64,000 bases of DNA from Octopus vulgaris. Taxonomy: Eukaryota. Numbering within the stretch: the stretch's first letter is position 1; each line of letters opens with the position of its first letter. Shown piece by piece: positions 23,545-23,660 of the stretch. Made by a program: the position numbers and the translations under genes. Location: the NCBI GenBank assembly GCA_951406725.2, contig OX597834.1, positions 38,130,001 through 38,194,000 of the forward strand. The letters are read 5' to 3'. A model generated the notes under the pieces. That model saw nothing but the letters and a program-made list of their open reading frames with translations, had not been told where the DNA came from and did no database searches.

Positions 23545-23589
<45 letters not shown>

Positions 23590-23614
23590 TTTATTAAATA
23601 GCAGCAAAAATATC

Positions 23615-23660
23615 ACAAAACTGTTAGAGTTTCACGTTCCCGTTCGTCGGACAGTTTTGT
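23615..23660 (-). ncRNA. Minimal type I hammerhead ribozyme-like motif (Penelope pLTR type)
   Basis: ACAAAACUGU-CCGACGA-ACG-GGAA-CGU-GAAA-CUC-UA-ACAGUUUUGU: perfect 10-bp stem I, core with U4C, 3-bp stem II with GNRA loop, single-pair stem III. AATAAA lies about 20 nt downstream. Confidence 0.7.

What the first reader, a model, noticed from the sequence alone, without database searches (positions are those of the whole stretch)
23589..23660. Stand-alone 46-nt minimal hammerhead ribozyme candidate plus poly(A) signal, set in (TA)n
Seen: the minus strand folds into a type I hammerhead with a perfect 10-bp stem I (ACAAAACUGU/ACAGUUUUGU), CCGACGA core, ACG/GGAA/CGU stem II, GAAA, a one-pair stem III with CUC loop and a UA cleavage site (predicted cut between 23625 and 23624). 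AATAAA follows at 23590-23595. The cassette is only about 70 bp, between (TA)n runs, with no adjacent RT or EN. Known: Penelope-like elements carry such minimal hammerheads in their pLTRs. Inference: a tiny non-autonomous ribozyme cassette (solo pLTR or retrozyme-like) with a non-canonical U4C core.
Basis: partly seen in the sequence, partly recalled or inferred. Interest (0 to 1): 0.8.

Follow-up and report, generated by a model that had tools for sequence, protein, structure and literature searches.

The report
Penelope retrotransposon stub with broken hammerhead
This 106-base stretch is the cut-short end of a Penelope-like jumping gene present in about ten thousand copies in this genome; its hammerhead ribozyme has lost four bases and is likely dead, but the family's copies share a sharp start point that likely marks where the element's RNA begins.

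Summary
The motif is at the stated coordinates and is not chance, but it is no stand-alone cassette. It is the 3' end (pseudo-LTR) of an old subfamily of a Hydra-type Penelope-like retrotransposon: 9,795 ribozyme copies genome-wide, longer ones joined to a GIY-YIG/RT frame, a young sister subfamily with intact 727-aa frames. The 'one-pair stem III' is a 4-nt deletion (3 exact copies); the family has the palindromic stem III of published Hydra hammerheads. AATAAA is the element's end, with no poly(A) in 0 of 91 copies. U4C is real and subfamily-wide (4,091 copies), kept through five older subfamilies, with U4 likely regained in the youngest (AU p 0.036). Not found in the papers searched: most insertions are ribozyme-only stubs whose 5' ends stop sharply 15-17 nt upstream of the core, at an initiator-like motif, and almost none begin at the cut site (1 of 91). 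They are likely cDNAs of the uncut 5' leader. Activity and RNA ends are untested.

The parts
23589..23694 (-). Whole insertion: 5'-truncated 3' end (pLTR core, no tail) of an old Hydra-type Penelope-like element, subfamily A1
23677..23694 (-). 5' piece of the leader, beginning at the C/A of the initiator-like CCATTCT motif (A at 23693); duplicates the stem I arm
   Evidence: same start in other copies
23661..23676 (-). 16-nt TA-rich spacer between the duplicated pieces
23651..23660 (-). Stem I, 5' arm
23644..23650 (-). Core CCGACGA with C at position 4 (23649), the subfamily's normal state
23634..23643 (-). Stem II, 3 bp with GGAA (GNRA) loop; 2 bp in younger subfamilies
23625..23633 (-). GAAA plus remnant of stem III; 4 nt of the family's palindromic ACTC-N-GAGT are deleted; predicted cut between 23625 and 23624
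23615..23624 (-). Stem I, 3' arm
23589..23595 (-). AATAAAG, the first of two fixed 3' ends of the family (inferred reverse-transcription start), abutting (TA)n
   Evidence: PMC11167929
23346..23588 (.). (TA)n-type target microsatellite

Best explanation
The stretch is a short, old insertion of the 3' end (pseudo-LTR) of a Hydra-type Penelope-like retrotransposon into a (TA)n repeat, likely made by reverse transcription of the uncut 5' leader of the element's RNA, and its hammerhead is likely inactive because four bases of stem III are deleted. Shown: family membership, linkage to a GIY-YIG/RT frame, two fixed 3' ends (AATAAAG, or about 70 nt further at the tail end), a sharp 5' limit 15-17 nt upstream of C3, the deletion, the subfamily-wide C4. 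Inferred: the element's RNA starts at the initiator-like A 17 nt upstream of C3 (about 0.5); the element's protein nicks (TA)n and starts cDNA inside the RNA at one of the two 3' ends, as shown for another Penelope-like element (PMC11167929); a start in the 5' pseudo-LTR yields an 84- or about 150-nt cDNA, often two of them joined head to head. In intact copies the ribozyme is predicted to cut only as a dimer through the palindromic stem III or with protein help, so most templates stay uncut. This copy can form neither stem III nor the dimer helix.
For: 608 candidates, 40 scored, 83-95% identical to the window piece; 9,795 copies with the ribozyme frame, control 0. Of 21 loci picked by the endonuclease region, 11 match the window cassette downstream on the same strand, 12 with a longer query. 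Intact 727-aa frame with RLRWK, DKT, YRDD, CxCx5C, GVVY..YTG, CxxC and CRH, followed about 1.02 kb later by the homologous ribozyme, and preceded by it in tandems. 3' ends: 52 of 91 at AATAAAG into TA-type repeat, 39 of 91 with tail, 0 of 91 poly(A). 5' ends: 30 of 91 at +13..+17, 6 of 91 between +18 and +370, 12 longer, 1 of 91 at the cut site; 58 of 91 have an inverted partner. Window's own subfamily: among the first 100 of 248 copies reaching +15, 41 stop at +15..+17, 57 run on, 2 unclear, none stops just beyond (hand count), although its stem I ends near +10. YYANWYY with A at +17 in 5 of 6 copies, +16 in the sixth. Identity of one oldest to one youngest copy rises from 61-62% upstream of +17 to 79-86% from there to the tail end. 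Stem III self-duplex -7.4 to -7.9 kcal/mol in 5 intact copies, +4.3 in the window copy. Published Hydra hammerheads carry the same gaa-actc-N-gagt-a stem III (PMC8557442 file S2).
Against: No activity or RNA-end data. Among 30 of 97 copies that include the 5' UTR, 20 of the 21 that reach +17 run past it, so long copies do not show the start point and need tandem read-through or template switching. YYANWYY is weak (1-4 matches per 120 nt). In the youngest subfamily stem I can extend to +17, so structure could set the limit there. No compensatory change within the lineage (covariation 0.028 against 0.040 shuffled). Pfam found nothing in the 727-aa frame, nor did PDB; clade assignment rests on motifs read by eye. 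The 91-copy sample is from the first 26 Mb of one contig and from younger subfamilies.
Confidence: 0.85

Rival explanations
1. Same element, but the sharp 5' limit is a stop for reverse transcription set by RNA or cDNA structure or by the bound protein (like a telomerase template boundary; analogy recalled), not the RNA's 5' end.
For: Stem I of the youngest subfamily can pair up to +17; long copies run past +17; 11 of 91 junctions sit at +14 on a CTAG palindrome.
Against: In the window's subfamily +11..+17 is predicted unpaired in one copy and weakly paired in another, yet the limit is the same; the limit coincides with an initiator-like A and with the jump in conservation.
Confidence: 0.35
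2. A separate non-autonomous ribozyme mini-element or retrozyme that copies itself from short master copies.
For: Stubs are the majority (73 of 91); they hold the initiator-like motif and the ribozyme and could be transcribed; solo pLTRs acting in trans are described (PMC3846280 passages).
Against: Stubs of every subfamily carry the diagnostic changes of the matching long elements; 5' junctions vary copy by copy; no head-to-tail arrays; the window's deletion allele has 3 exact copies, in at least two subfamilies.
Confidence: 0.08
3. The window copy is a functional, host-retained minimal ribozyme with a poly(A) signal.
For: All core bases but U4 are intact, a UA site remains, and stem I is perfect. 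A conserved gene lies 30 kb upstream on the same strand, so an intronic position is possible but untested.
Against: Hammerhead fold 8.1 kcal/mol above the best fold and no dimer helix; core bases of 30 old copies change at the flank rate (10 of 232 against 41 of 795); AATAAA is 1 nt from the element's end.
Confidence: 0.04
4. The lineage's hammerhead was catalytically dead throughout the C4 period and kept only as a structure or promoter element.
For: U4C 'considerably decreases activity in vitro' (PMC3088659 passage); stem II shrank to 2 bp; cleavage is dispensable in vitro for another element (PMC11167929); 1 of 91 junctions at the cut site.
Against: C3, G5, A6, G8, A9, G12-A15.1, U16.1 and the palindrome stay the commonest state across all subfamilies while positions 7, L2, 11.1 and L3 drift; U4C keeps enough activity for viroid infectivity (same passage).
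Confidence: 0.25

Closest known systems
Hydra clade of C-terminal-endonuclease Penelope-like elements (Craig et al. 2021, PMC8557442)
   Same: RWK, DKT, CxCx5C linker, CxxC and CxH around the endonuclease E and N, (TA)n targets, 3' hammerhead. [quoted passage not shown]
   Different: All 26 Hydra rows of file S2 have U4 (their descriptor asked for it) and mostly longer stems II. Unit 3,431 bp against 'generally <3 kb'. The listed octopus family Hydra-1_Obim has another ribozyme and, by eye, another protein start; identity not computed.
Minimal/palindromic-helix-III hammerheads of metazoan Penelope-like elements (Cervera and de la Pena 2014, PMC4209133)
   Same: Type I, in pLTRs, thousands of mostly single copies from truncated elements, palindromic helix III, predicted dimer.
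   Different: Fixed C4; stem II of 2-3 bp with GNRA loop, no G10.1-C11.1; long stem I; this copy has lost half of the palindrome.
Poseidon element of Anolis, PAc (Frangieh et al. 2024, PMC11167929)
   Same: Two fixed 3' ends with an optional tail, AT-rich targets, cDNAs spanning the uncut ribozyme.
   Different: Other clade; tail about 70 nt against 30-40; ribozyme lies upstream of the frame, not in it; a fixed 5' limit is not described in the passages read.
Non-LTR retrozymes (bioRxiv 10.64898/2026.07.22.740005, introduction and methods)
   Same: Non-coding, type I hammerhead, derived from pLTRs.
   Different: Defined there by tandem units each with a ribozyme; these stubs are single or head-to-head and end at the element's own ends.
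U4C viroid hammerhead variant (Ambros and Flores 1998, seen only as cited in PMC3088659)
   Same: CCGA in place of CUGA.
   Different: A natural variant there; here the master state of five subfamilies with at least 4,091 genomic copies.

Membership tests
Penelope-like element | Single frame with RT and GIY-YIG endonuclease | tested here: met
   In linked long copies, not in the window: 727-aa frame, motifs read by eye; homolog P0002 carries PF01541; Pfam scan of the frame itself empty
Penelope-like element | Partial tandems forming pLTRs, inverted 5'-truncated partners, optional tail | tested here: met
   L119, L121 tandems; 58 of 91 with inverted partner; 39 of 91 with tail
Hydra clade | RWK, DKT, CxCx5C linker, CxxC and CxH flanking E and N, endonuclease C-terminal | tested here: met
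   against PMC8557442 section 11; decayed forms in old copies
Hydra clade | Insertion into (TA)n | tested here: met
Hydra clade | Generally shorter than 3 kb | tested here: not met
   Tandem unit 3,431 bp; a tendency in the paper, not a strict criterion
Hydra clade | Groups with reference Hydra proteins in a tree; CCHH motif absent | not tested
   Reference proteins were seen only in the paper's supplement; no CCHH seen by eye
Type I hammerhead | Conserved core CUGANGA / GAAA / UH | tested here: inconclusive
   All present but U4, which is C; U4C is a known weaker variant
Type I hammerhead | Stem III, or a palindrome that forms it in a dimer | tested here: not met
   Window copy: 1 bp, self-duplex +4.3; met in intact copies, -7.4 to -7.9 kcal/mol
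Type I hammerhead | Covariation in stems I and II | tested here: not met
   12 copies: inner pairs nearly invariant, score below shuffles; across phyla stems II differ yet pair in file S2 (read, not computed)
Type I hammerhead | Site-specific self-cleavage | not testable with these tools
   No assay; contigs cannot show RNA ends
Non-LTR retrozyme | Tandem units, each with a ribozyme | tested here: not met
Non-LTR retrozyme | Circular RNA | not testable with these tools
   No raw RNA reads offered
Poly(A) signal | Poly(A) added some 10-30 nt downstream (recalled) | tested here: not met
   0 of 91 copies with 10 A within 45 nt; element ends 1 nt after the hexamer or reads on into tail and frame

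The most novel reading that the evidence does not exclude
The thousands of stubs are a fossil map of the Penelope replication cycle: the RNA starts at an initiator 17 nt upstream of the hammerhead core, reverse transcription starts inside the RNA at either end of the tail, and most events copy only the uncut 84-150-nt leader, often twice head to head. The hammerhead is then a dimer- or protein-gated brake rather than a required processing step, which let the lineage run for five subfamilies on a weakened U4C core before the youngest burst regained U4 by a CpG transition.
Probability: 0.4. Interest if true: 0.65.

Novelty: new variant of a known kind. Interest (0 to 1): 0.4.

Why it matters
The window copy itself is ordinary debris. 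The family matters because what Penelope hammerheads do, and where the element's RNA begins, are open. Here one lineage offers a dated series of natural ribozyme variants (C4 to U4, stem II from 3 to 2 bp), intact recent elements, and a precise prediction for the RNA's 5' end. It also shows that searches demanding CUGA miss thousands of copies: Rfam found none here.

Tried and rejected
Rfam at two thresholds: no hammerhead match. Cleavage site as the 5' end of insertions: 1 of 30 long copies, 1 of 91 3'-anchored copies; rejected. Selection on single copies: not seen. Covariation: not seen. U4 in old copies as a selected subfamily: C4>T 4 of 29, G5>A 6 of 29, CpG sites 20% against 5%, so CpG decay. 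First one-clade test on 327 columns did not reject C4 monophyly (p 0.079); the longer alignment did, modestly (p 0.036); a first tree run timed out. Splice acceptor as the cause of the 5' limit: the AG is at +12/+11 and absent from the window's subfamily; rejected. Expression of this copy: no RNA holder listed. Contigs of three runs guessed to be RNA cover the young pLTR with both U4 and C4 forms but cannot show ends, strand or level. Pfam and PDB gave no name for the element's protein or the window's gene. The viroid U4C paper is not held. Earlier scan notes: nothing.

Full report
Observation. The 46-mer folds better than 198 of 200 shuffles, but the best fold has no stem III. Rfam gave nothing at gathering score and no hammerhead among 41 weak matches.

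It is a repeat. The window lies in G000, 2.8 Gb in 227 contigs; size and repeat content are what I recall for an octopus, which no call tested. The piece has 608 candidate matches, 40 scored, 83-95% identical. Exact patterns give 1,922 hits for the old core (92 C4, 8 T4 in the first 100), 3,935 for a young core, 4,091 for C4 cores of any subfamily and 9,795 for the ribozyme frame with free core; controls 0.

It is the end of a Penelope-like element. Walking upstream through longer copies gave about 1.0-1.3 kb of 3' UTR and then a GIY-YIG endonuclease and RT. Of 21 loci chosen by the endonuclease region, 11 match the window cassette downstream on the same strand. A young subfamily has intact 727-aa frames with RLRWK, DKT, YRDD, CxCx5C, CxxC and CRH, the marks of the Hydra clade (PMC8557442 section 11). 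Its 3' end is homologous to the window piece, and in tandems the same sequence precedes the frame, forming the pLTR. No part of this frame lies next to the window copy; the only hit in the window is a distant fragment at 38160-38324.

What is allele and what is family. The family's stem III is ACTC-N-GAGT, as in published Hydra hammerheads (file S2). It pairs with itself at -7.4 to -7.9 kcal/mol in 5 intact copies; the window copy lacks 4 nt and gives +4.3, and its hammerhead fold is 8.1 kcal/mol above its best fold, against 1.0-4.7 for intact copies. The exact deletion allele has 3 genome copies; like deletions occur in other subfamilies. AATAAAG is an element end: of 91 copies, 52 run straight into TA-type repeat, 39 carry a tail of about 70 nt, 0 have poly(A). 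In the Anolis element the two ends of the tail are internal starts of reverse transcription (PMC11167929); I infer the same here.

U4C. Among 145 ribozyme copies held (12 unassigned; overlapping loci may count a copy twice; A1 partly chosen by likeness to the window), subfamilies defined outside position 4 show 4.8, 4.8, 2.8, 2.7, 1.2 and 0.7% divergence, with C4 in 49 of 56, 14 of 15, 6 of 6, 6 of 7, 10 of 10 and 0 of 39. T4 in old copies matches CpG decay. In a tree of 15 element proteins and 3 outgroups the U4 subfamily nests within C4 copies (99/97) and C4 monophyly is rejected at p 0.036; a shorter alignment gave 0.079. Rows were picked by coverage from 34 linked copies. So U4 was likely regained; the outgroups' own ribozymes are unknown. 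Single old copies show no selection: 10 of 232 core against 41 of 795 flank changes. No covariation within the lineage.

The 5' limit. In 91 copies anchored at the 3' end (92 of the first 100 of 9,230 hits were sought; 8 were not fetched), 73 end within 17 nt upstream of C3, 30 of them at +13..+17; 6 end between +18 and +370, 12 are longer, 1 ends at the cut site, and 58 have an inverted partner. In the window's subfamily 41 of the first 100 copies reaching +15 stop at +15..+17 and none just beyond (hand count), though stem I there ends near +10. The A at +17 is the +1 of a YYANWYY initiator-like motif (consensus recalled), conservation between old and young copies jumps there, and the window's insertion starts there too. 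Internal promoters in pLTRs are published (PMC2377424, PMC3846280 passages). Against: 20 of 21 long copies that reach +17 run past it, the motif is weak, and young stem I can pair to +17.

Mechanism. Shown: family, ends, deletion, C4 history. Inferred: RNA start at +17 (about even odds against a structural stop), internal priming at (TA)n nicks, uncut templates, dimer- or protein-dependent cutting, inactivity of this copy.

Papers seen: PMC4209133 parts 1-2 of 4; PMC8557442 passages, sections 6 and 11, supplement searches and part 2 of 59; PMC11167929 passages and second half of the main text; PMC3088659, PMC3846280, PMC2377424 passages; bioRxiv 2026.07.22.740005 part 1 of 5 (its supplements are closed and may list related families); Ambros and Flores 1998 not seen. 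Searches returned no description of this lineage, of a fixed U4C in a retroelement or of the 5' limit; Repbase and Dfam were not searchable, so the family may be catalogued there.

Verdict. Real motif, known kind of element, damaged copy; the family-level U4C history and sharp 5' limit are the parts worth following. Interest 0.4.

Noticed in passing
window 20928-20972 (+): Second stub of the same family, starting at GAAA and also lacking 4 nt of stem III.
   Followed up: partly
L025, L114, L115, L136, window 23626 and 20935: Loss of the 3' arm of the stem III palindrome recurs in different subfamilies; cause unknown.
   Followed up: partly
L141, L160, L194, L024, window 23661-23694: Short duplications of the 5' leader at the 5' junction, suggesting re-priming or template switching.
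   Followed up: no
L120:7703 (+): An unrelated hammerhead-like motif that also has CCGACGA, with a 2-nt stem III insert; other canonical motifs at L120:6493, L012, L015, L028 and L124. U4C may recur in other families of this genome.
   Followed up: no
window 25316-33841: 8.5-kb (ACAA)n array, about 2,130 units, 79% matches.
   Followed up: no
window 53427-56614 (-): Two long open frames (651 and 325 aa) of an unnamed gene; the second has 7 unnamed homologs at 40-80% identity, no Pfam. Whether the insertion lies in one of its introns is unknown.
   Followed up: partly
window 38160-38324 (-): Distant endonuclease fragment, 37.5% identical over 56 aa to the element's protein.
   Followed up: no
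window 10450-10783: 19-bp minisatellite, 17.6 copies, 90% matches.
   Followed up: no
G000 C1, e.g. L242/L243, L264, L276: Perfect head-to-head ribozyme palindromes joined on the CTAG at +14..+11.
   Followed up: partly
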